DNA of 64,000 bases from Actinomycetota bacterium (GTDB lineage: Bacteria > Actinomycetota > UBA4738 > HRBIN12). Shown here piece after piece: positions 39,450 through 53,452 of the stretch. Below the pieces are notes generated by a model. That model worked only from the letters and a program-made list of their open reading frames with translations, was not told the DNA's origin and made no database searches. The stretch lies in assembly GCA_036374435.1 (NCBI GenBank), contig DASUTU010000123.1, positions 1,241 through 65,240 on the forward strand, read 5' to 3'. Each line of letters begins with the position of its first letter. The stretch's first letter is position 1. A program made the position numbers and the translations under genes.

Positions 39450-39524
39450 TGGAGCCGGCGGTCGGATTCGAACCGACGACCACCCGCTTACAAGGCGGGC
39501 GCTCTGCCCCTGAGCTACGCCGGC
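39450..39524 (-). tRNA. tRNA-Thr (anticodon UGU), CCA encoded
   Basis: Minus-strand sequence GCCGGCGTAGCTCAGGGGCAGAGCGCCCGCCTTGTAAGCGGGTGGTCGTCGGTTCGAATCCGACCGCCGGCTCCA. 7-bp acceptor stem, D-arm GCTC/GAGC, anticodon loop CTTGTAA, T-arm GTCGG-TTCGAAT-CCGAC. Confidence 0.9.
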
Positions 39525-44976: not shown

Positions 44977-45810
44977 ATGGACCGCCGACGAGTCGGCAGC
45001 GTAAGCGCTCACCCCAACGACCGAAAGGAACCTCCGTTGAACCCAGAGCAGAACGAACGGGACGGCCCCGTGCAGTTCTTCGTCGACGAGGGGCTGATCA
45101 CGGACGTCGTCCGGATCATCAAGACCGGCAAGGAGGCATCCGTCTACCTGTGCCGGGCCAATCCGTCCACCGGCGAGGACCTGCTCGCCCTGAAGGTCTA
45201 TCACCCGCTCGACCGCCGGGACTTCCGAGACGAATGGCTGTATCGAGACGGCGAATACATCAAGGAGCGCCGCGTCCGGGTGGCGCTCGAGAAGCGGACC
45301 CGGTTCGGCCGGGAGGTCCAGGGCGCCCTGTGGGTGGTCCGCGAGTGGGAGACCCTCGGGGCCCTCGCCGACGCGGGGGCGCCGGTGCCCCGGCCCCTGG
45401 ACGCGACCGAGGAGGCCATCCTCATGACCTACATCGGCGACGAGGAGCACGCCGCGCCGCAGCTTCGGGCGTACCGCCCCTCGCCGGAGGAGGCCGAGGA
45501 CCTGTTCGCGCAGGTCGTCCGCGCGATCGAGCACATGCTGTACCGCAACGTGATCCACGGCGACCTCTCGGCGTTCAACGTCCTGGTGTGGGAGGGGCGG
45601 GCCATCGTCATCGACCTTCCGCAGGCCGTGGACCCCAGGAAGAACCGGCACGCGCCGACGCTGCTCGAGCGCGACGTGGTCCGGATCGCGGAGCACTTCG
45701 GCAGGTACGGAGTTCGCTCCTCGCCACAACGCATCGCGAAGGACCTGTGGACGGCGTGGCAGTTCGCCGACCTCGTCCCGGAGGACCTGCGGGTGGGGAT
45801 CGAGATCTGA
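44977..45810 (+). CDS. RIO-type serine/threonine protein kinase (RIO1 family)
   Basis: ...KTGKEASVYLC...LKVY...VIHGDLSAFNVLVWEGRAIVIDLPQAV... The start is ATG 44977, or alternatively TTG 45037 after GAAAGGA. Confidence 0.8.
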   Translation: MDRRRVGSVSAHPNDRKEPPLNPEQNERDGPVQFFVDEGLITDVVRIIKTGKEASVYLCRANPSTGEDLLALKVYHPLDRRDFRDEWLYRDGEYIKERRVRVALEKRTRFGREVQGALWVVREWETLGALADAGAPVPRPLDATEEAILMTYIGDEEHAAPQLRAYRPSPEEAEDLFAQVVRAIEHMLYRNVIHGDLSAFNVLVWEGRAIVIDLPQAVDPRKNRHAPTLLERDVVRIAEHFGRYGVRSSPQRIAKDLWTAWQFADLVPEDLRVGIEI

Positions 45811-45813
45811 GGC

Positions 45814-46194
45814 TCAGCCCTCGCGCGCGCCGCGGAACTCGAGCACGTACCGCCAGCTCGAATCGTCCTCGGCGTGTTCGAAGTCCTGGAGCCGTCCGAT
45901 CTCGCCGCCCGGAAGGAGCATGGGGAGGCCGATGTGGCGACCGTTCGGCCAGAGGTCCTCACGCGCGCGTTCCTCCATCCGGACCAGCGTGACCGGGCGG
46001 TCCCCCGGGGTCTCGAGCGGCTCACACCACTCGGACTCTTCGACCGGCAGGAGCTGTCGAAACCGCACGAACCGCACCGGCGCATGGAGGAGAACGGGTT
46101 CGCCGGGCGACTTCCACGCCTTGCCGAAGAACCGCCAGCGTTCGCCGTCGCGCGAGGTCTCGACCGCCCAGCACTCCTCGTTGCCCAGCGACAT
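45814..46194 (-). CDS. hypothetical protein
   Basis: ATG at 46194. High GC3. Product MSLGNEECWAVETSRDGERWRFFGKAWKSPGEPVLLHAPVRFVRF... Confidence 0.45.
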   Translation of the reverse strand: MSLGNEECWAVETSRDGERWRFFGKAWKSPGEPVLLHAPVRFVRFRQLLPVEESEWCEPLETPGDRPVTLVRMEERAREDLWPNGRHIGLPMLLPGGEIGRLQDFEHAEDDSSWRYVLEFRGAREG

Positions 46195-46267
46195 GGAACA
46201 GACCCTATGCCCGATCCCCGACAAACGTGACCGCTCCGACACAACGGACCGGCAGCCGGATCGGACG

Positions 46268-46699
46268 TCAGGAGGCCAGCGGATCCTCGATCCTCAGCCC
46301 CGGGAACCGTGTGAAGTCTCGATCCGAGGTGCAGAGCGTCGCCCCGTGCTCGATCGCGAGCGCGGCGACATGGGCATCCATCAGGAGGGGTCCGCGGGCC
46401 TTCCCCGCTTGGGCGAGCTCTCCGATCACCTCGAAATGCCGGCGCGTGGGCTGGACGATGCCGACGTTCGGCCGAGCCAGCCAGCCGGAGGCGATTCCCA
46501 TCGCCTCGTCGGCCATCAGCGGGCGCTCGAAGACCCGAGCGTCAGTTCCAATACGCAGGAAGGCCAGCACCGAGACGAGCGCGAGGCCGACTTCATCCTC
46601 CGAACTGAGGGCCTCCTCCAACCAGTTGACCGCCCGATCGTGGATGGGCGACAAGCGGTCGTACGCGTACAGCAGGAGGTTGGCGTCGATGAGGATCAA
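46268..46699 (-). CDS. vapC: type II toxin VapC (PIN domain ribonuclease)
   Basis: MILIDANLLLYAY...D...TSDRDF. The ATGA overlap with the upstream antitoxin gene indicates coupling. Confidence 0.85.
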   Translation of the reverse strand: MILIDANLLLYAYDRLSPIHDRAVNWLEEALSSEDEVGLALVSVLAFLRIGTDARVFERPLMADEAMGIASGWLARPNVGIVQPTRRHFEVIGELAQAGKARGPLLMDAHVAALAIEHGATLCTSDRDFTRFPGLRIEDPLAS

Positions 46700-46941
46700 C
46701 GGCGCCGGGGACCCTCGAGACGGTCGAGGAGCCCTTCGATGTCATCCACGTCGAACCCGGGCTTGAGGCCCATCGGCCGTGCCTCGACCTTGAATGGAGG
46801 AGGCGCCTTCGAACGGCGACTCAGCCCGGTCCTGAGGGTCTCGTTGACGAGGGCCTTGAAGCTCTTGCCGGTGCGCCGGCTCTCCTCGAGCAACCGCTCG
46901 GCCACGTCGTCCTCGAGGGTGAGGGTCGTCCTGCGGCTCAC
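46696..46941 (-). CDS. vapB: type II antitoxin VapB-like
   Basis: 81 aa. MSRRTTLTLEDDVAERLLEESRRTGKSFKALVNETLRTGL... GTG start. Confidence 0.75.
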   Translation of the reverse strand: MSRRTTLTLEDDVAERLLEESRRTGKSFKALVNETLRTGLSRRSKAPPPFKVEARPMGLKPGFDVDDIEGLLDRLEGPRRR

Positions 46942-46955
46942 ATCATGAAGTCTAG

Positions 46956-46970
46956 CATGATGACATCATG
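46956..46970. promoter_or_regulatory. perfect 15-bp palindrome CATGATG-A-CATCATG upstream of vapB, with a flanking CATCATGA/TCATGATG inverted repeat; probable VapBC operator
   Basis: Seen in the sequence 15-30 nt upstream of the vapB start. Confidence 0.6.
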
Positions 46971-47143
46971 ATGCCTCGCAGCAACCGAGCAGAGGGCGCC
47001 ACGCGCGGAGCGGGGGCCGGCTGGACCCGACGCCGTCGCTGCGGCATCCTGCCCCACCTAAGCGTTTCGCGTCCGATCGGCATCTTTCGTCCATGCAGGC
47101 AGAGGGCAACGTCGTGCGGCTCCCGGTCGCGGAGGAGCGCCCC

Positions 47144-47611
47144 ATGGACTTCTCGGCGTTCTTCGCCGAGGAGCACCGAGGGCTGTTCAAGCTCCTGTAC
47201 TTCGTGACGGGGAACCGGGCGGATGCCGCCGAGCTGATGCAGGACGCATTCCTGAAGCTGTGGGAGCGGTGGGACCGGATCGATCGGATCTCGGACCCAC
47301 GGGCGTACCTGTTCCGCGTGGCGTTGAACGGATCCCGGATGCGGGCGCGCGCCGCACGCCGGGCTGCGCGGAAGCTGGTCTCCGTCGCCGCGTCTCACGA
47401 TCCGTACGACGAGGTGAACCTCAGGGAGGACGTCCGGAAGATGCTGCTGGGGCTTTCGCCGCGACAACGTGCCGCCCTCGTCCTGCTCGACCTGCACGGC
47501 CTCGACTCCGACGAGGCCGCCCGGATCATGGGGATCCGTCCCTCGACGGTCCGGGCGCTCGCCTCGCAGGGCCGAGCCGTGCTCCGGGCCTCAGGAGGCC
47601 TGCATGTCTGA
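47144..47611 (+). CDS. ECF-type RNA polymerase sigma factor (sigma-70 regions 2 and 4), copy 1
   Basis: ATG at 47144 after GGAGGAG (the listed ORF starts at 47093 without an RBS). ...FLKLWERWDRIDRISDPRAYLFRVALNGSRMRAR... and a region-4 HTH (LSPRQRAALVLLDLHGLDSDEAARIMGIRPSTVRALASQGR). Confidence 0.85.
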   Translation: MDFSAFFAEEHRGLFKLLYFVTGNRADAAELMQDAFLKLWERWDRIDRISDPRAYLFRVALNGSRMRARAARRAARKLVSVAASHDPYDEVNLREDVRKMLLGLSPRQRAALVLLDLHGLDSDEAARIMGIRPSTVRALASQGRAVLRASGGLHV

Positions 47612-48587
47612 GCTGAGGGAGGTGTTCGAGATGGTGACCAAACAGGCCGAGCCGGACCTCGACGTCTGGAGGGAGCAGGAGCGGCGCCAACGGCGGCACA
47701 CAAACCGTAGGAAGGTCGGCGTCTACGCCCTGGTGGCCCTGATCGCGATCGGCGTGGCGGCCGCAGCCGTGGGCCTGCTTCGCCGGGCCGACCCGGCGGG
47801 CGTCCCCGCCGACGACCCGAACGAGGTTCCACAGGAGCGACCGGAGGGAGCGCCGCCGACGGCGGGGGGGCTCGCCGGGCTCTGGCTCGAGGACGTCGCC
47901 GAGCGCGGGATCGCCGGAGCGGGCGTCAGTCCCACCGTCGTGTGGTTCACGGCGGACGGGCAGGTCCGGCTCGACAACGGAGGCGACCTGTCGTTCCCGT
48001 ATTGCCCCGGGACCTACGCGCTCGACGGCGACCGGATCGCGTGGGACTGCGGCAACGACGAGTGGGTGATGAGGGCGGGGCTGACCGAGGACGGCTGGCT
48101 ACGAGCCGTGGTGGTGGAGAGCCGGGCGGTCCCGGCGCCCGTGGGAGCGCGGCGCGGCTGGATGCGGGTGTTCCCGGGCTCGCCCGCAAGCGCGGCGATC
48201 CGGGTCGGTGGGGACACCGACTGGGCGCCCTACGACCTCGAGAACGCCTCGGCGTTCCAGGGCGTCTGGGTGAGCGACGACGGCGAGCTCCTGGTCTCGG
48301 TGGGGCTCACCGGCACCTACGAGATCCACGAGGCCGGCGGGCGGGGCGTCGAGCCGCTCGACGTCGGCACGGTCGAGTTGGACGGGGACGAGATCACGTT
48401 CACGAGCGGATCCGAATCTCCGAGCTGTGCCGAGGGCGACCGGATGGCCTGGTCGGTCGAACGCGGCACGCCCGCACCGGCGCCGGGGATCCACGGCGTG
48501 GTCCGTTCCACCGTGGGTGAGGACGCCTGTGCGGCTCGGGCCGAGCTCGACCTGGAGAGGATCTGGCTCCGGCTCAGCATCAGGTGA
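47606..48587 (+). CDS. membrane-anchored anti-sigma-factor-like protein, copy 1
   Basis: The ATG overlaps the sigma-factor stop (ATGTCTGA). N-terminal cytoplasmic segment, a single TM (VGVYALVALIAIGVAAAAVGLL), then an extracytoplasmic domain. Confidence 0.65.
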
Positions 48588-48594
48588 CGCGACA

Positions 48595-48632
48595 CCGACG
48601 GCCCGGCAGCCCTTTGGTTGCCGGGCCGTCGG
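48595..48632 (+). terminator. 17-bp stem hairpin CCGACGGCCCGGCAGCC-cttt-GGTTGCCGGGCCGTCGG; copy 1 of a repeated element
   Basis: Starts 8 nt after the anti-sigma stop. A near-identical element recurs at 50866-50906. Confidence 0.55.
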
Positions 48633-48754
48633 TTCGCACGCTCCGGCTCGGCCGCCCGGCTGCTCGAGCCGTAGGCTGATCGAATCTCACCGTGCCCGCT
48701 AGACGCGAGGAGTGGCTCGTGCATCCATGGTCCATGCGGGCGGAGGGTGAGGTC

Positions 48755-49258
48755 GTGCACTTCCCGACCGAGCGCGTCGAGGCCAGGGCCCGCTTCGACG
48801 AGTTCGTCGAGGACGAACACGAACGCCTCTACAAGGCTCTGTACTTCGTGACCGGGAGCCGTGAGGACGCCGAGGACCTATCGCAGGAGGCGTTTCTCAA
48901 GCTCTGGGAGCGATGGGACCGGATCGATCGGATCGACGATCCGACGGCCTACCTGTTCCGGGTGGCGCTGAACGGATTCCGGATGCGGCGTCGCCGGGCG
49001 GCGATGGCGCTCCGGAGACTTCCGCCGGTCCAGGGACCGCGGGACGAGTTCGCGGAGGCGGAGATGCGCGCGGACGTTCGCCTGCTCCTCCTCGGCCTCT
49101 CGCCCCGGCAGCGGGCCGCCCTCCTGCTCGTGGACCTGCTCGGGTACCCCTCCGAGCAGGCGGCGCGCATCCTGCGCGTCCGGCCGTCGACGGTGCGGAA
49201 CCTGGCGAGCCAGGGACGACGGGCCCTCAGAGCGGCGGAAGGAGCGCGGGATGCCTGA
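48755..49258 (+). CDS. ECF-type RNA polymerase sigma factor, copy 2 (paralogue of 47144..47611)
   Basis: GTG at 48755 after GGAGGG. FLKLWERWDRIDRIDDPTAYLFRVALNGFRMRRR... is almost identical to copy 1. Region-4 HTH present. Confidence 0.8.
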   Translation: MHFPTERVEARARFDEFVEDEHERLYKALYFVTGSREDAEDLSQEAFLKLWERWDRIDRIDDPTAYLFRVALNGFRMRRRRAAMALRRLPPVQGPRDEFAEAEMRADVRLLLLGLSPRQRAALLLVDLLGYPSEQAARILRVRPSTVRNLASQGRRALRAAEGARDA

Positions 49259-50198
49259 CGTACAGGAGGTGTTCCGTATGGCCACCCAGAAGGTTCGTCC
49301 CGACGAGGGCTTCGTCGATCGGCAGCTCGAGCACCAGCGACGGCGGAGCCGGAACCGACGAGTCGGCACCTACGTTCTGGTCGGAGCGATCGGCATCGTG
49401 GGCGCGATCGTCGCTTTCAGTCTCGGCTTCCGAGGCGACCAGCAGGTCCCCGCGACTCGGCCCACGCAAGCACCGGTCGTGGCGGAGGCTCTGGAGCTGA
49501 GCGACCTCGTTGGTGTGTGGTTCGAGGTGGACGGATCGCACCTGCTCAACATCAGCCGGGACGGCTCGTACGCGCTGGACGACTCGGGTCTTCTCGACAC
49601 CAGCCCCGATGACGCCGGATCCGTCGAGATCGGCGACGATGGGTCCATCCGCTTCGTGAGCAGCGCGGCGTCGCGAGAATGCACCCTTGGTGCCACGTGG
49701 GTCTGGAGATCTGCCGAGCTCGAGCAGCGAGGACTCCTGCGTGTCGCCGAGGCCGATACCGCCTGTCCCGCTGGGGTCCTCGGGTCATCCAGCTGGGGCC
49801 TGGTGGGAGGAGGCCCGGTGAGCCCGCTGAGCGAGCCCGTCCCGGGTCCCGACCAGCGGGAGGGGAGACCCATCACGAGGGACGACCTGATCGGGTTCTG
49901 GGACAACCCCAATGGTCCTGGTCTGTTCCGGTTCTCGGCGGACGGGACGTTCGCGGGCTACTTCCCCGAGAGTCTCGATAGCCCGCCGCTCCTGACTGGG
50001 ACCTGGGAGGTCCGGGGCAATCGGATTCGCCAGGTCTTCACGTCGACCCGAATCCCCGGATGCACCGCCGGCGACGTCGAAGTCTTTGAGGCGGAACTGA
50101 TCGAACTGGCGGACGGCGTCGCGCTGCGCACCAACGTGTTGCGAAGCTGCGGGGAGATCCTTCCGCCCCCCGTACAGGTGCGCATCTCTCCGCGATAG
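49251..50198 (+). CDS. membrane-anchored anti-sigma-factor-like protein, copy 2
   Basis: ATG after GGAAGGAG overlaps the sigma stop. The N-terminus (MPDVQEVFRMATQKVRPDEG...RRVGTYVLVGAIGIVGAIVAF) is paralogous to copy 1. Confidence 0.65.
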   Translation: MPDVQEVFRMATQKVRPDEGFVDRQLEHQRRRSRNRRVGTYVLVGAIGIVGAIVAFSLGFRGDQQVPATRPTQAPVVAEALELSDLVGVWFEVDGSHLLNISRDGSYALDDSGLLDTSPDDAGSVEIGDDGSIRFVSSAASRECTLGATWVWRSAELEQRGLLRVAEADTACPAGVLGSSSWGLVGGGPVSPLSEPVPGPDQREGRPITRDDLIGFWDNPNGPGLFRFSADGTFAGYFPESLDSPPLLTGTWEVRGNRIRQVFTSTRIPGCTAGDVEVFEAELIELADGVALRTNVLRSCGEILPPPVQVRISPR

Positions 50199-50258
50199 GT
50201 GGTGTACGCGGTGGGAAGCCAACGTCGACCCCGAGCCTTTCGCTGGAAGGAGGCAGAC

Positions 50259-50741
50259 ATGAACCGCAGGCTTCTCTCGGTGCTCGCCGTCTTGGCGGTC
50301 CTCGGAGCGTCCGGAGTGGCGCACGCATCGCCACCAACAACCGCGAGCGGGACGTACGTCGTCACGGCCATCACCGGCTTCGCGCTCCACCCCGCCGGCC
50401 CAAACGCCTTCGGCGAGCAGACCACGACAGGAGTCTTCGCCGGGACGTTGACGGGCACCTTCGAAGACGAGATCAGGTTCATCGTCCATCCCAACGGGCT
50501 CGTCGGGGCTCGGGGCACGTTGACCTGTGTCTGCACGGTCTCCGGAAGGTCGGGCACCCTGGAGTTCGTTCAGGTGAGCACCGGGGACTTCGAAGCGCAG
50601 GCCTTCGAAGGTCGCGCGATCATCACGCGGGGGACAGGAGACCTCGTCGGTCTTCACGGAGTTCTGCACTTGCTTGGCACCGTTGATCCAGGAGGACTGG
50701 CCACCGTCAGCTACGCAGGGCAGATCAACTTCGCTCCGTGA
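50259..50741 (+). CDS. secreted hypothetical protein (signal peptide)
   Basis: ATG after GGAAGGAGG. Product MNRRLLSVLAVLAVLGASGVAHA... Confidence 0.55.
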   Translation: MNRRLLSVLAVLAVLGASGVAHASPPTTASGTYVVTAITGFALHPAGPNAFGEQTTTGVFAGTLTGTFEDEIRFIVHPNGLVGARGTLTCVCTVSGRSGTLEFVQVSTGDFEAQAFEGRAIITRGTGDLVGLHGVLHLLGTVDPGGLATVSYAGQINFAP

Positions 50742-50844
50742 CCCGGTGGCCTCGAGCCGAGTCTCGGTGGTGAGCTGAGCGATGGCCCGTCGCCGCTGCC
50801 CCCGAGCGCAGGTACCCCCCGAGGCATGGCTAGCGGCTCCAGCC

Positions 50845-50906
50845 AGGACACCGAACGGCCCAGGACACCGAACGGCCCGGCAGCCTCTCGGTTGCCGGGC
50901 CTTCGG
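50845..50906 (+). repeat. 17-bp tandem duplication (CAGGACACCGAACGGCC x2) followed by hairpin copy 2 of the 48595 element
   Basis: Seen directly: caggacaccgaacggcc caggacaccgaacggcc cggcagcc tctcg gttgccgggccttcgg. Confidence 0.6.
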
Positions 50907-50959
50907 TCTTGCGGCCGGGCGGCCGGAGCCGCCCGACGTCCGGATCCTCCGCTACCGGA

Positions 50960-53452
<2,493 letters not shown>

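What the first reader, a model, noticed from the sequence alone, without database searches (positions are those of the whole stretch)
47144..50198. Tandem duplication of an ECF sigma / anti-sigma module
Two consecutive sigma-factor genes are near-identical in regions 2 and 4 (FLKLWERWDRIDRI[S/D]DP.AYLFRVALNG.RMR). Each is translationally coupled to a single-TM anti-sigma-like gene. The anti-sigma N-termini are paralogous while the extracytoplasmic domains have diverged. This suggests sub-functionalisation of a duplicated signalling module. The anti-sigma factors lack a ZAS HxxxCxxC motif.
Basis: seen in the sequence. Interest (0 to 1): 0.55.

Follow-up and report, generated by a model that had tools for sequence, protein, structure and literature searches.

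The report
Two adjacent paralogous ECF sigma/anti-sigma modules
Two neighbouring gene pairs, each an alternative sigma factor plus its membrane-bound inhibitor, are real, but they come from two long-separated subfamilies and sit in a genomic slot where such pairs are repeatedly gained, lost and reshuffled; this is an ordinary kind of signalling system from an uncharacterised family of soil actinobacteria.

Summary
Two ECF sigma genes (47093-47611, 48734-49258; 61% aa identity) each overlap by 8 nt (ATGnCTGA) a gene for an N-in, single-pass membrane protein (47604-48587, 49251-50198). Neither membrane protein has a ZAS motif.

The pair is not a recent local duplication:
- dS is about 0.95, against 0.20 for the sigma1 ortholog in a sister genome.
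- In 79 related loci the sigmas split into three deep clades (S1, S2, C). Each clade has its own conserved ~35-aa anti-sigma N-terminus and its own variant of an upstream motif, TA[AG][AG]CG-N15-GCATC[CT], placed 7-9 nt before the start codon. This is probably an autoregulated, leaderless promoter.
- The modules occupy a conserved RIO1-kinase/ClpC slot that holds 1-3 units in varying type and order.
- The sister genome (ClpC 99% identical) has only module 1, plus a decayed remnant of a different second anti-sigma.
- Ectodomains are swapped between types. Anti2's ectodomain together with the downstream DUF3224 gene recurs behind an S1-type sigma elsewhere.

The ectodomains are modelled as two lipocalin-like beta-barrels. 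This is a new member of a known kind, of moderate interest.

The parts
47059..47085 (+). Candidate autoregulated promoter of module 1 (TAAGCG-N15-GCATCT). It ends 7 nt before the ATG, which implies a leaderless mRNA.
   Evidence: One of only two exact matches to the motif in 64 kb. The same S1-type motif lies at a fixed distance before the start codon in 27 of the 35 S1-type upstream regions examined. In 748 kb of loci there are 53 strict hits against about 0.65 in shuffles, and all are upstream of family sigma genes.
47093..47611 (+). ECF sigma factor 1 (172 aa), S1 clade.
   Evidence: Pfam Sigma70_r2 and r4_2. NCBIfam sigma70-ECF scores above its cutoff. The ortholog in L001 is 94% identical. 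The NJ tree places it in the S1 clade.
47604..48587 (+). Anti-sigma 1 (327 aa): type-A N-terminal cytoplasmic peptide, one TM segment, two-repeat beta-barrel ectodomain.
   Evidence: 8-nt overlap with sigma1. TM segment at residues 38-56 and no ZAS motif. The type-A N-terminus co-varies with S1 sigmas. No Pfam or NCBIfam hit.
48589..48637 (+). Strong hairpin ending module 1. It is probably an intrinsic terminator without a U-tract, and it is a copy of the clpC-side hairpin.
   Evidence: dG -49.9 kcal/mol, z -7.9. 36 nt are 89% identical to 50872-50907 (D4). There are only two full copies in the window.
48700..48726 (+). Candidate autoregulated promoter of module 2 (TAGACG-N15-GCATCC). It ends 7 nt before the ATG.
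   Evidence: Exact motif match. The S2-type variant is conserved in about 34 S2 loci.
48734..49258 (+). ECF sigma factor 2 (174 aa), S2 clade.
   Evidence: Pfam and NCBIfam hits. The nearest relatives are in L071 (89%) and L060 (85%).
49251..50198 (+). Anti-sigma 2 (315 aa): type-B N-terminal peptide, one TM segment, and an ectodomain of two lipocalin-like beta-barrels, each with a conserved Cys pair.
   Evidence: 8-nt overlap with sigma2. AF2 model with pLDDT 81.7. Foldseek domain-level hits to lipocalin-like proteins 4qrl, 5byp, 4iab and 2mhd. Conserved Cys columns in the family alignment.
50259..50741 (+). Secreted DUF3224 protein, probably the third gene of the module-2 operon.
   Evidence: Pfam PF11528, E 7.8e-6. 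The gap to anti2 is 60 nt, has a Shine-Dalgarno-like GGAAGGAGG, no significant RNA structure (z -0.8) and no promoter motif. A DUF3224 homolog also follows the anti2-like ectodomain in L083.
50872..50907 (.). Hairpin between DUF3224 and the convergent clpC gene (a shared terminator). It is the second copy of the repeat that brackets module 2 plus DUF3224.
   Evidence: The same hairpin lies next to clpC in the sister locus L001.
50960..53452 (-). ClpC, the conserved right-hand flank of the slot.
   Evidence: 99% identical to L001 ClpC. ClpC lies downstream of the modules in about 30 loci.
45046..45810 (+). RIO1-type kinase, the conserved left-hand flank of the slot. DUF7712 (45814-46242, minus strand) and a VapBC pair (46268-46941, minus strand) lie between it and sigma1.
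   Evidence: RIO1 is found upstream of the modules in about 40 loci. Pfam annotations for L001. VapBC is absent from L001.

Best explanation
The region holds two self-contained ECF signalling units of one lineage-restricted family, found in uncultured soil Actinomycetota.

Each unit has four parts:
- its own candidate promoter;
- a probably leaderless ECF sigma gene;
- a translationally coupled gene for an N-in single-pass anti-sigma factor;
- a strong terminator hairpin.

Proposed mechanism (inferred):
- The first ~35-40 cytoplasmic residues of the membrane protein form a short helix, a loop, and a second helix that runs into the TM segment. They bind and sequester the cognate sigma.
- An extracytoplasmic signal is sensed by the ectodomain, which is modelled as two lipocalin-like beta-barrels, each probably stapled by a disulfide.
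- The signal inactivates the anti-sigma, most likely by regulated proteolysis. The freed sigma transcribes its own operon and an unknown regulon.

The two units are ancient paralogs (clades S1 and S2). Each has a matched anti-sigma N-terminus (type A or type B) and a matched promoter variant: TAAGCG..GCATCT for S1, TAGACG or TCAGCG..GCATCC for S2. They probably work as insulated parallel channels.

They sit in a conserved slot between the RIO1 kinase and ClpC genes. Units there undergo birth-and-death turnover, and sensor domains are exchanged by recombination. Module 2 plus its DUF3224 gene is the variable part here.
For: Shown:
- Sigma identity and domain content.
- The 8-nt overlap occurs in 28 of 35 S1 loci and 32 of 36 S2 loci.
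- Single TM segment and positive-inside topology.
- Three deep sigma clades.
- In every S1 and S2 locus with a readable downstream start, the anti-sigma N-terminus type matches the sigma clade, while ectodomain lengths range from about 100 to 440 aa.
- The bipartite motif has fixed 15-nt spacing and lies 7-9 nt from the start codon. It has clade-specific variants and is found only upstream of family sigma genes: 53 hits against about 0.65 expected.
- Hairpin terminators follow each unit.
- The RIO1-ClpC slot is conserved and holds 1-3 units in varying type and order.
- The sister locus has module 1 only, plus a PD40-type anti-sigma remnant (tblastn E 3e-9).
- dS is 0.95 between the paralogs and 0.20 for the ortholog.
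- In L083, an ectodomain 64% identical to anti2's, with a DUF3224 gene behind it, follows an S1-type sigma and a type-A N-terminus.
- The N-terminal domain family has 551 clusters at 50% identity, and the domain lies at or near the predicted N-terminus in the listed hits.
- The AF2 model and Foldseek give a lipocalin-like fold.

Inferred: sigma binding by the N-terminal peptide, autoregulation, leaderless transcripts, and the release mechanism.
Against: - There is no experimental or structural evidence that the membrane proteins bind the sigmas. A sigma/anti-sigma complex prediction could not be run.
- The N-terminal part of the AF2 model has only moderate confidence (pLDDT 56-78).
- Foldseek E-values are weak (0.02), although domain-level probability is 0.9-0.99.
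- The motif could be read by another sigma factor or bound by a regulator.
- No regulon member other than the operons themselves was found.
- The data do not decide whether module 2 was inserted here or lost in the sister genome.
Confidence: 0.8

Rival explanations
1. This is a recent, in-place tandem duplication of one module in this lineage. The sensor domains then diverged (sub-functionalisation).
For: The units are adjacent and co-oriented, with the same 8-nt overlap and a 1644-nt start-to-start spacing. The hairpins bracketing module 2 are 89% identical. A genuinely recent tandem pair exists elsewhere: the two S2 copies in L052 group together in one S2 sub-clade.
Against: - dS is about 0.95 and sigma nucleotide identity is 66%.
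- The two sigmas fall in different deep clades, each with many closer relatives in other genomes.
- The N-terminal peptide types A and B are each conserved across hundreds of proteins.
- The sister genome lacks module 2 at this locus.
- The nearest relative of anti2's ectodomain is attached to an S1/type-A module.
Confidence: 0.04
2. S1 and S2 units stood in tandem in the RIO1-ClpC slot in the ancestor of the clade. The window keeps the ancestral pair, and relatives such as L001 lost or replaced the second unit (differential loss). No new cassette was inserted here.
For: - S1 followed by S2, in the same order, occurs in L009, L023 and L024. The reverse order occurs in L015, L017 and L019.
- Slots holding only an S2 unit exist (L043, L056, L071).
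- L001 retains a decayed fragment of a second anti-sigma.
Against: - The L001 remnant is PD40-type, not the lipocalin-type of anti2.
- The order and number of units vary between genomes.
- The closest sigma2 relatives (85-89%) carry different ectodomains.
- The hairpins flanking module 2 plus DUF3224 are far more alike (89%) than the genes are. This fits a later recombination event.
- The sister genome has its S2 unit elsewhere (L079).
Confidence: 0.35
3. The downstream membrane proteins are not anti-sigma factors. They could be co-transcribed envelope proteins, or positive partners of the sigma.
For: They have no sequence match to any described anti-sigma domain. The cytoplasmic segment of about 37 aa is too short for a class I anti-sigma domain.
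Against: - The N-terminal peptide type matches the sigma clade in every S1 and S2 locus with a readable downstream start, despite unrelated ectodomains.
- The first ~30 cytoplasmic residues are extremely conserved.
- Translational coupling is conserved.
- The architecture is the one typical of ECF anti-sigma factors, and two-helix class II domains of similar size are known (PMC6101532).
Confidence: 0.08
4. The conserved upstream motif is not the cognate ECF promoter. It could be an operator for another regulator, or a promoter read by a different sigma factor.
For: The hexamers do not resemble the common ECF GGAAC/CGTC consensus (own knowledge). No further copies occur in front of other genes. 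This would be unusual for an ECF sigma that controls a regulon.
Against: - The motif is bipartite with a fixed 15-nt gap and a fixed 7-9 nt distance to the start codon.
- Both halves vary with the sigma clade.
- No sigma-70-like promoter is present in the region.
Confidence: 0.15

Closest known systems
Mycobacterial ECF pairs with single-pass, non-zinc anti-sigma factors (SigK-RskA, SigD-RsdA)
   Same: They are actinobacterial. An ECF sigma gene is followed by a gene for an N-in single-pass membrane anti-sigma without HxxxCxxC. The cytoplasmic N-terminus is the presumed sigma-binding part (own knowledge; RskA is listed as a class I ASD in PMC6101532).
   Different: RskA and RsdA have a cytoplasmic domain of about 80-90 aa with four helices. 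Here there are only about 37-41 residues before the TM segment. There is no sequence similarity to these proteins. The best solved sigma match is only M. tuberculosis SigE, at E 1e-15.
Class II anti-sigma domains (CnrY, NepR), which form a two-helix clamp
   Same: The sigma-binding module is very short, about two helices. CnrY is also a small membrane-anchored protein (PMC6101532).
   Different: There is no sequence similarity. Here the second helix runs straight into the TM segment, and a large sensor ectodomain is attached. The binding mode is untested.
Streptomyces SigE-family ECF sigma factors (NCBIfam TIGR02983)
   Same: This is the best-scoring named subfamily for both sigmas (E 1e-30 and 4e-29). 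It is an actinobacterial family known for paralog expansion.
   Different: The scores (106.6 and 101.6 bits) fall below the family cutoff of 141.55 bits. The sigmas are therefore not members by NCBI's criterion.
Orthogonal ECF sigma / anti-sigma / promoter sets and ECF paralog expansions (ECF classification, PMC7826278)
   Same: Sigma sequence, anti-sigma type and promoter motif are correlated within a group. Actinobacteria carry many ECFs per genome, 17.7 on average.
   Different: Here three sub-lineages that are only about 60% identical already show distinct anti-sigma peptides and promoter variants. They are clustered as exchangeable units at one conserved locus. Assignment to an ECF group could not be tested.

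Membership tests
ECF (group 4) sigma-70 family | [quoted passage not shown] | tested here: met
   PF04542 and PF08281 hit both proteins. TIGR02937 sigma70-ECF scores 68.2 and 70.9 bits against a cutoff of 42.9. Lengths are 172 and 174 aa.
SigE-fam_strep (TIGR02983) | Score at or above the curated cutoff of 141.55 bits | tested here: not met
   106.6 and 101.6 bits.
ECF Hub / ECF classification 2.0 group | Match to a group-specific HMM, with the group's typical anti-sigma and promoter | not testable with these tools
   The group HMMs are not available and the paper's supplements are not held. Candidate actinobacterial groups with a 'putative anti-sigma factor' are ECF219, ECF221 and ECF222.
ZAS (zinc-binding) anti-sigma factors | HxxxCxxC motif in the cytoplasmic anti-sigma domain | tested here: not met
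   A regular-expression search finds none. No Cys lies before the TM segment, and there is no zf-HC2 hit.
Class I anti-sigma domain | Three-helix bundle plus a fourth helix (about 80-90 cytoplasmic residues) | tested here: not met
   Only 37-41 residues precede the TM segment. AF2 gives one short helix (residues 4-11) and a helix from residue 21 that runs into the TM segment. The definition is from PMC6101532.
Class II anti-sigma domain (CnrY/NepR) | Two-helix clamp around sigma-2 and sigma-4 | tested here: inconclusive
   The size and helix count are compatible, but there is no sequence similarity.
Cognate anti-sigma factor (functional class) | Encoded next to and co-expressed with the sigma; sigma-binding part co-evolves with the sigma | tested here: met
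   8-nt overlap in 60 of 71 S1 and S2 loci. In every S1 and S2 locus with a readable downstream start, the N-terminal type matches the sigma clade. Direct binding is not testable here.
Lipocalin-like (calycin) beta-barrel, for the ectodomain repeats | Eight-stranded antiparallel barrel similar to solved lipocalin-like proteins | tested here: inconclusive
   The AF2 model shows two units of about 8 strands with pLDDT around 90. Foldseek hits 4qrl, 5byp, 4iab and 2mhd with probability 0.90-0.99 and target-normalised TM 0.48-0.55, but E is only 0.02-0.16. There is no Pfam hit.
Recent tandem gene duplication | The copies are each other's closest relatives, with low synonymous divergence | tested here: not met
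   They fall in different deep clades. dS is 0.95, against 0.20 for the ortholog.
Autoregulated ECF promoter | Conserved bipartite -35/-10 motif upstream of the sigma gene that varies with sigma type | tested here: met
   Dependence on the sigma itself is not testable here.

The most novel reading that the evidence does not exclude
The ~35-residue N-terminal peptide (M.E/D..EVF.M.T.... then a basic helix) may be a previously undescribed minimal anti-sigma domain. It occurs in at least three mutually insulated specificities (A, B, C), each co-evolving with its sigma clade and with a promoter variant. The RIO1-ClpC slot may act as a recombination hot spot. There, complete units and sensor ectodomains are exchanged between specificities; in one case (L083) the ectodomain moves together with an accessory secreted protein, DUF3224. 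This would be a natural plug-and-play system for rewiring envelope sensing.
Probability: 0.3. Interest if true: 0.55.

Novelty: new member of a known kind. Interest (0 to 1): 0.35.

Why it matters
The logic, an ECF sigma held by a membrane anti-sigma, is textbook. The finding therefore does not change how such systems are understood.

Its value is as a resource. It is a compact, uncharacterised family: 551 clusters at 50% identity for the N-terminal domain, and at least 490 sigma loci in species-representative genomes. Three closely related sigma lineages each carry their own anti-sigma peptide and promoter variant, while sensor domains are freely exchanged. This offers a natural system for studying two questions:
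- how paralogous sigma/anti-sigma/promoter triads become insulated from each other;
- how small a sigma-binding module can be.

It also corrects the annotation of the two sigma start codons and links DUF3224 to one sensor subtype.

Tried and rejected
- Complex prediction. I built a paired alignment (A5, 36 rows) of sigma, a Gly-Ser linker and the anti-sigma N-terminus, to predict the complex with AF2. The binding mode remains untested.
- Pfam at E up to 10 on each ectodomain repeat and each N-terminal segment gave nothing meaningful. NCBIfam gave nothing for the anti-sigmas.
- PDB sequence search with anti2 at E up to 10 gave no hits.
- ECF group assignment from the ECF classification paper failed because its supplements are not held.
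- The sigma-70-type promoter scan found 0 sites. The U-tract terminator scan found only two irrelevant minus-strand sites. The real hairpins lack U-tracts.
- Relaxing the promoter motif to 2 mismatches gives chance-level counts (28 against 20.6 +/- 4.9) and no site before DUF3224. The single 1-mismatch hit lies inside tRNA-Thr.
- Profile comparison of the ectodomain family with DUF3224 found no homology.
- Base composition shows no atypical GC for module 2.
- Rfam found no RNA family in the region.
Full report
ANATOMY. The window is 69-74% G+C. Its proteins match an uncultured 'Actinomycetota bacterium' MAG exactly (P0001).

The plus strand carries these features, in order:
- sigma1, 47093-47611;
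- anti-sigma1, 47604-48587;
- a very stable hairpin, 48589-48637 (dG -49.9 kcal/mol, z -7.9);
- sigma2, 48734-49258;
- anti-sigma2, 49251-50198;
- after a 60-nt unstructured gap with a Shine-Dalgarno-like sequence, a secreted DUF3224 protein, 50259-50741;
- a second copy of the hairpin, 50872-50907;
- the convergent clpC gene.

Upstream lie a RIO1-type kinase gene, a DUF7712 gene and a VapBC pair. A Logan contig from an independent sequencing run is 99.97% identical across 47943-51048, so the arrangement is not an assembly artefact.

CHECK OF THE OBSERVATION.
- The two sigmas are 61% identical (E 1e-61).
- Each sigma stop codon overlaps the next ATG by 8 nt.
- Each downstream protein has one hydrophobic segment after a strongly basic stretch, which indicates an N-in topology. 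Neither has HxxxCxxC, and all Cys lie outside the membrane.
- The two membrane proteins align over about 305 residues (28% identity, E 4e-13) and share an internal two-repeat structure. The ectodomains are therefore diverged homologs, not unrelated domains.
- Conservation of the peptide M[QR]AEG.VV..P, and of an upstream motif at a fixed distance, places the starts at 47093 and 48734.

AGE OF THE PARALOGY.
- The sigma genes are 66% identical in DNA, with dS about 0.95. The sigma1 ortholog in the sister genome has dS 0.20.
- A scan of species-representative genomes found at least 490 related sigma loci, and I analysed the best 79.
- The sigmas form three deep clades. S1 is 70-94% identical to sigma1 and about 60% to sigma2. 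S2 is 70-89% identical to sigma2. C is about 60% identical to both.
- Sigma1 groups with L001, L002 and L005. Sigma2 groups with L071 and L060.

The two genes are therefore old paralogs, not products of a duplication in this lineage.

COGNATE PAIRS. The first ~30 residues of the downstream protein fall into sharply conserved types, each following one sigma clade:
- Type A, M.EL[RK]EVFEMVTKQ.EPD.D.W..QE.RQRR, follows S1 sigmas.
- Type B, MPDVQEVFRMATQKVRPD.G...RQ, follows S2 sigmas.
- Type C, MPDV.EVYEMVTKQKPPEPGALERQ, follows C sigmas.

I saw no mismatch among the S1 and S2 loci with a readable downstream start. The type-C peptide follows most, but not all, of the sigmas I placed in clade C. 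The rest of the protein varies from about 100 to 440 residues and includes PD40 propellers, a ~275-aa domain, and one or two beta-barrel repeats. The 8-nt overlap ATGnCTGA is present in 28 of 35 S1 loci and 32 of 36 S2 loci. A profile of the N-terminal 62 residues finds 551 clusters at 50% identity among 1.84 billion representatives, and the domain lies at or near the predicted N-terminus in the listed hits. This co-variation is the main argument that the N-terminal peptide is the sigma-binding anti-sigma domain.

The peptide matches no Pfam, NCBIfam or PDB entry. With about 37-41 cytoplasmic residues, it is too short for a class I domain as defined in PMC6101532. AF2 models it as one short helix plus a helix that continues into the membrane. 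Its size resembles class II domains such as CnrY and NepR, but the binding mode could not be tested.

PROMOTERS.
- It occurs exactly twice in the window, at 47059-47085 and 48700-48726.
- In 748 kb of related loci it occurs 53 times, against about 0.65 in shuffles. Of these, 44 lie directly before the tabulated sigma genes. Most of the other 9 lie before further or frameshifted sigma copies, and none lies before a recognisable unrelated gene.
- Both halves vary with the clade. S1 has TAAGCG/GCATCT. S2 has TCAGCG, TAGAC[GA] or TAAGCG with GCATCC. C has TAAACG/GCATCC.
- No sigma-70-type promoter is present.

The fixed short distance to the start codon, and the lack of a usable Shine-Dalgarno sequence, suggest leaderless transcripts from autoregulated promoters. 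This is an inference. No copy lies before DUF3224, which is therefore most simply co-transcribed with module 2.

THE LOCUS IS A SLOT WITH TURNOVER. RIO1 upstream and clpC downstream flank these modules in about 30-40 loci. The slot holds:
- S1 alone (for example L001, L008, L020);
- S2 alone (L043, L056, L071);
- C alone (L031, L058);
- two or three units in either order: S1 then S2 in L009, L024 and the window; S1, S2, S2 in L023; S2 then S1 in L015, L017 and L019; C with S1 or S2 in L010, L027, L033 and L039.

In L023 and L024 whole units repeat with a period of 1648-1665 nt. The window's spacing is 1644 nt. Within a genome, the terminator hairpins at unit ends are more alike (87-97%; 89% in the window) than the sigma genes are (64-77%). 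This points to recombination or gene conversion at unit ends.

The sister genome L001 has ClpC 99%, sigma1 94% and anti1 79% identical to the window. At this locus it has only module 1, followed by a secreted cupin. Between those two genes lies a fragment of a PD40-type anti-sigma C-terminus (tblastn E 3e-9 to 1e-7). Its S2-type unit lies on another contig (L079). VapBC and DUF3224 are absent from L001.

SENSOR SWAPPING. On contig L083, an S1-type sigma (71% identical to sigma1, with an S1-type promoter) is followed by a type-A anti-sigma. That protein's ectodomain is 64% identical to anti2's and at most 37%, over a short stretch, to anti1's. A DUF3224 homolog follows it. Conversely, the closest sigma2 relatives (85-89%) carry different ectodomains. 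Ectodomains are thus exchanged between specificities, with a breakpoint near the TM segment. In this one case DUF3224 accompanies the exchanged ectodomain, which suggests a functional link. DUF3224 could be a partner in sensing or an output, and this remains open. DUF3224 and the ectodomain show no detectable homology.

ECTODOMAIN. The AF2 model, built from a 24-sequence alignment, has pLDDT 81.7 overall and about 90 in the domains. It shows two beta-rich units of about eight strands each. Foldseek's best domain-level matches are lipocalin-like Bacteroides proteins and avidins (probability 0.9-0.99, target-normalised TM about 0.5, E 0.02-0.16). Each repeat of anti2 has a conserved Cys pair, which fits an extracytoplasmic disulfide. 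A small-ligand-binding sensor is plausible but unproven.

MECHANISM AND VERDICT. The best reading is two independent, probably insulated, ECF signalling channels of one uncharacterised lineage-specific family. Each channel has a promoter, a sigma, a coupled anti-sigma and a terminator. They stand side by side in a locus prone to unit turnover. The release mechanism is inferred by analogy only; regulated proteolysis is the usual one for single-pass anti-sigmas (own knowledge).

This is a new member of a known kind, of moderate interest.

Noticed in passing
L001:8985-9251: The sister genome's spacer between the anti1 ortholog and a cupin gene encodes a frameshifted remnant (WSPNGMQVTYPDAGEAFVVDVARGESTKV...) of the C-terminus of a PD40-propeller-type anti-sigma factor of this family. 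It is the relic of a lost second module.
   Followed up: yes
L083:811-2481: An S1-type sigma with a type-A N-terminus is joined to an ectodomain 64% identical to anti2's, followed by a DUF3224 homolog. The sensor domain and DUF3224 move together between sigma specificities.
   Followed up: yes
window 46268-46941 (minus strand) and 46942-46975: A VapC/VapB toxin-antitoxin pair is inserted between DUF7712 and sigma1, relative to the sister genome. The divergent spacer holds repeated CATCATGA/TCATGATG elements that look like a VapB operator. A partial copy of the terminator hairpin (46243-46257) lies at the other end of the insertion.
   Followed up: partly
window 50843-50876: A perfect 17-nt tandem duplication (CCAGGACACCGAACGGC, twice) lies immediately before the clpC-side hairpin. 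The sister locus has a single copy of the GACACCGAACGGC part.
   Followed up: partly
window 47604-48587 vs L001:8001-8984: The anti-sigma gene evolves much faster than its sigma between the two close genomes (dN 0.13 against 0.03). Even dS differs (0.58 against 0.20), which hints at recombination or different constraints within one operon.
   Followed up: no
L023:5001-9884; L024:5001-8212; L015:3135-6616: Tandem arrays have a unit period of about 1.65 kb. Within them, the PD40 ectodomain segments and terminator hairpins of neighbouring units are 80-97% identical, although the sigma genes belong to different clades. This indicates homogenisation of unit 3' ends within the array.
   Followed up: partly
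window 47093-47143 and 48734-48790: Both sigmas carry a conserved N-terminal extension of about 17-20 aa (M[QR]AEG[EDN]VV.[FL]P...) before region 2.1. It is shared by all three clades, and its function is unknown.
   Followed up: no
L010:3572-4099, L027:6722-7249 and about 20 other loci: A third sigma clade (C) has its own anti-sigma N-terminus (MPDVrEVYEMVTKQKPPEPGALERQ) and a TAAACG/GCATCC promoter variant. In about half of these loci a gap of about 10 nt replaces the 8-nt overlap.
   Followed up: partly
window 45046-45810 and 50960-53452: Synteny between a RIO1-type kinase, the sigma/anti-sigma units and ClpC is conserved across the clade. In mycobacteria, a kinase and ClpC1 are reported to control turnover of an anti-sigma factor (own knowledge). 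Whether the linkage is functional here is unknown.
   Followed up: no
window 39450-39524 (minus strand): A tRNA-Thr (TGT) gene. Its T-arm gives the only 1-mismatch chance hit to the promoter motif.
   Followed up: yes
L074: One S2-type locus with an upstream RIO1 gene is labelled as a Planctomycetaceae MAG. It is probably a binning contaminant from an actinobacterium.
   Followed up: no
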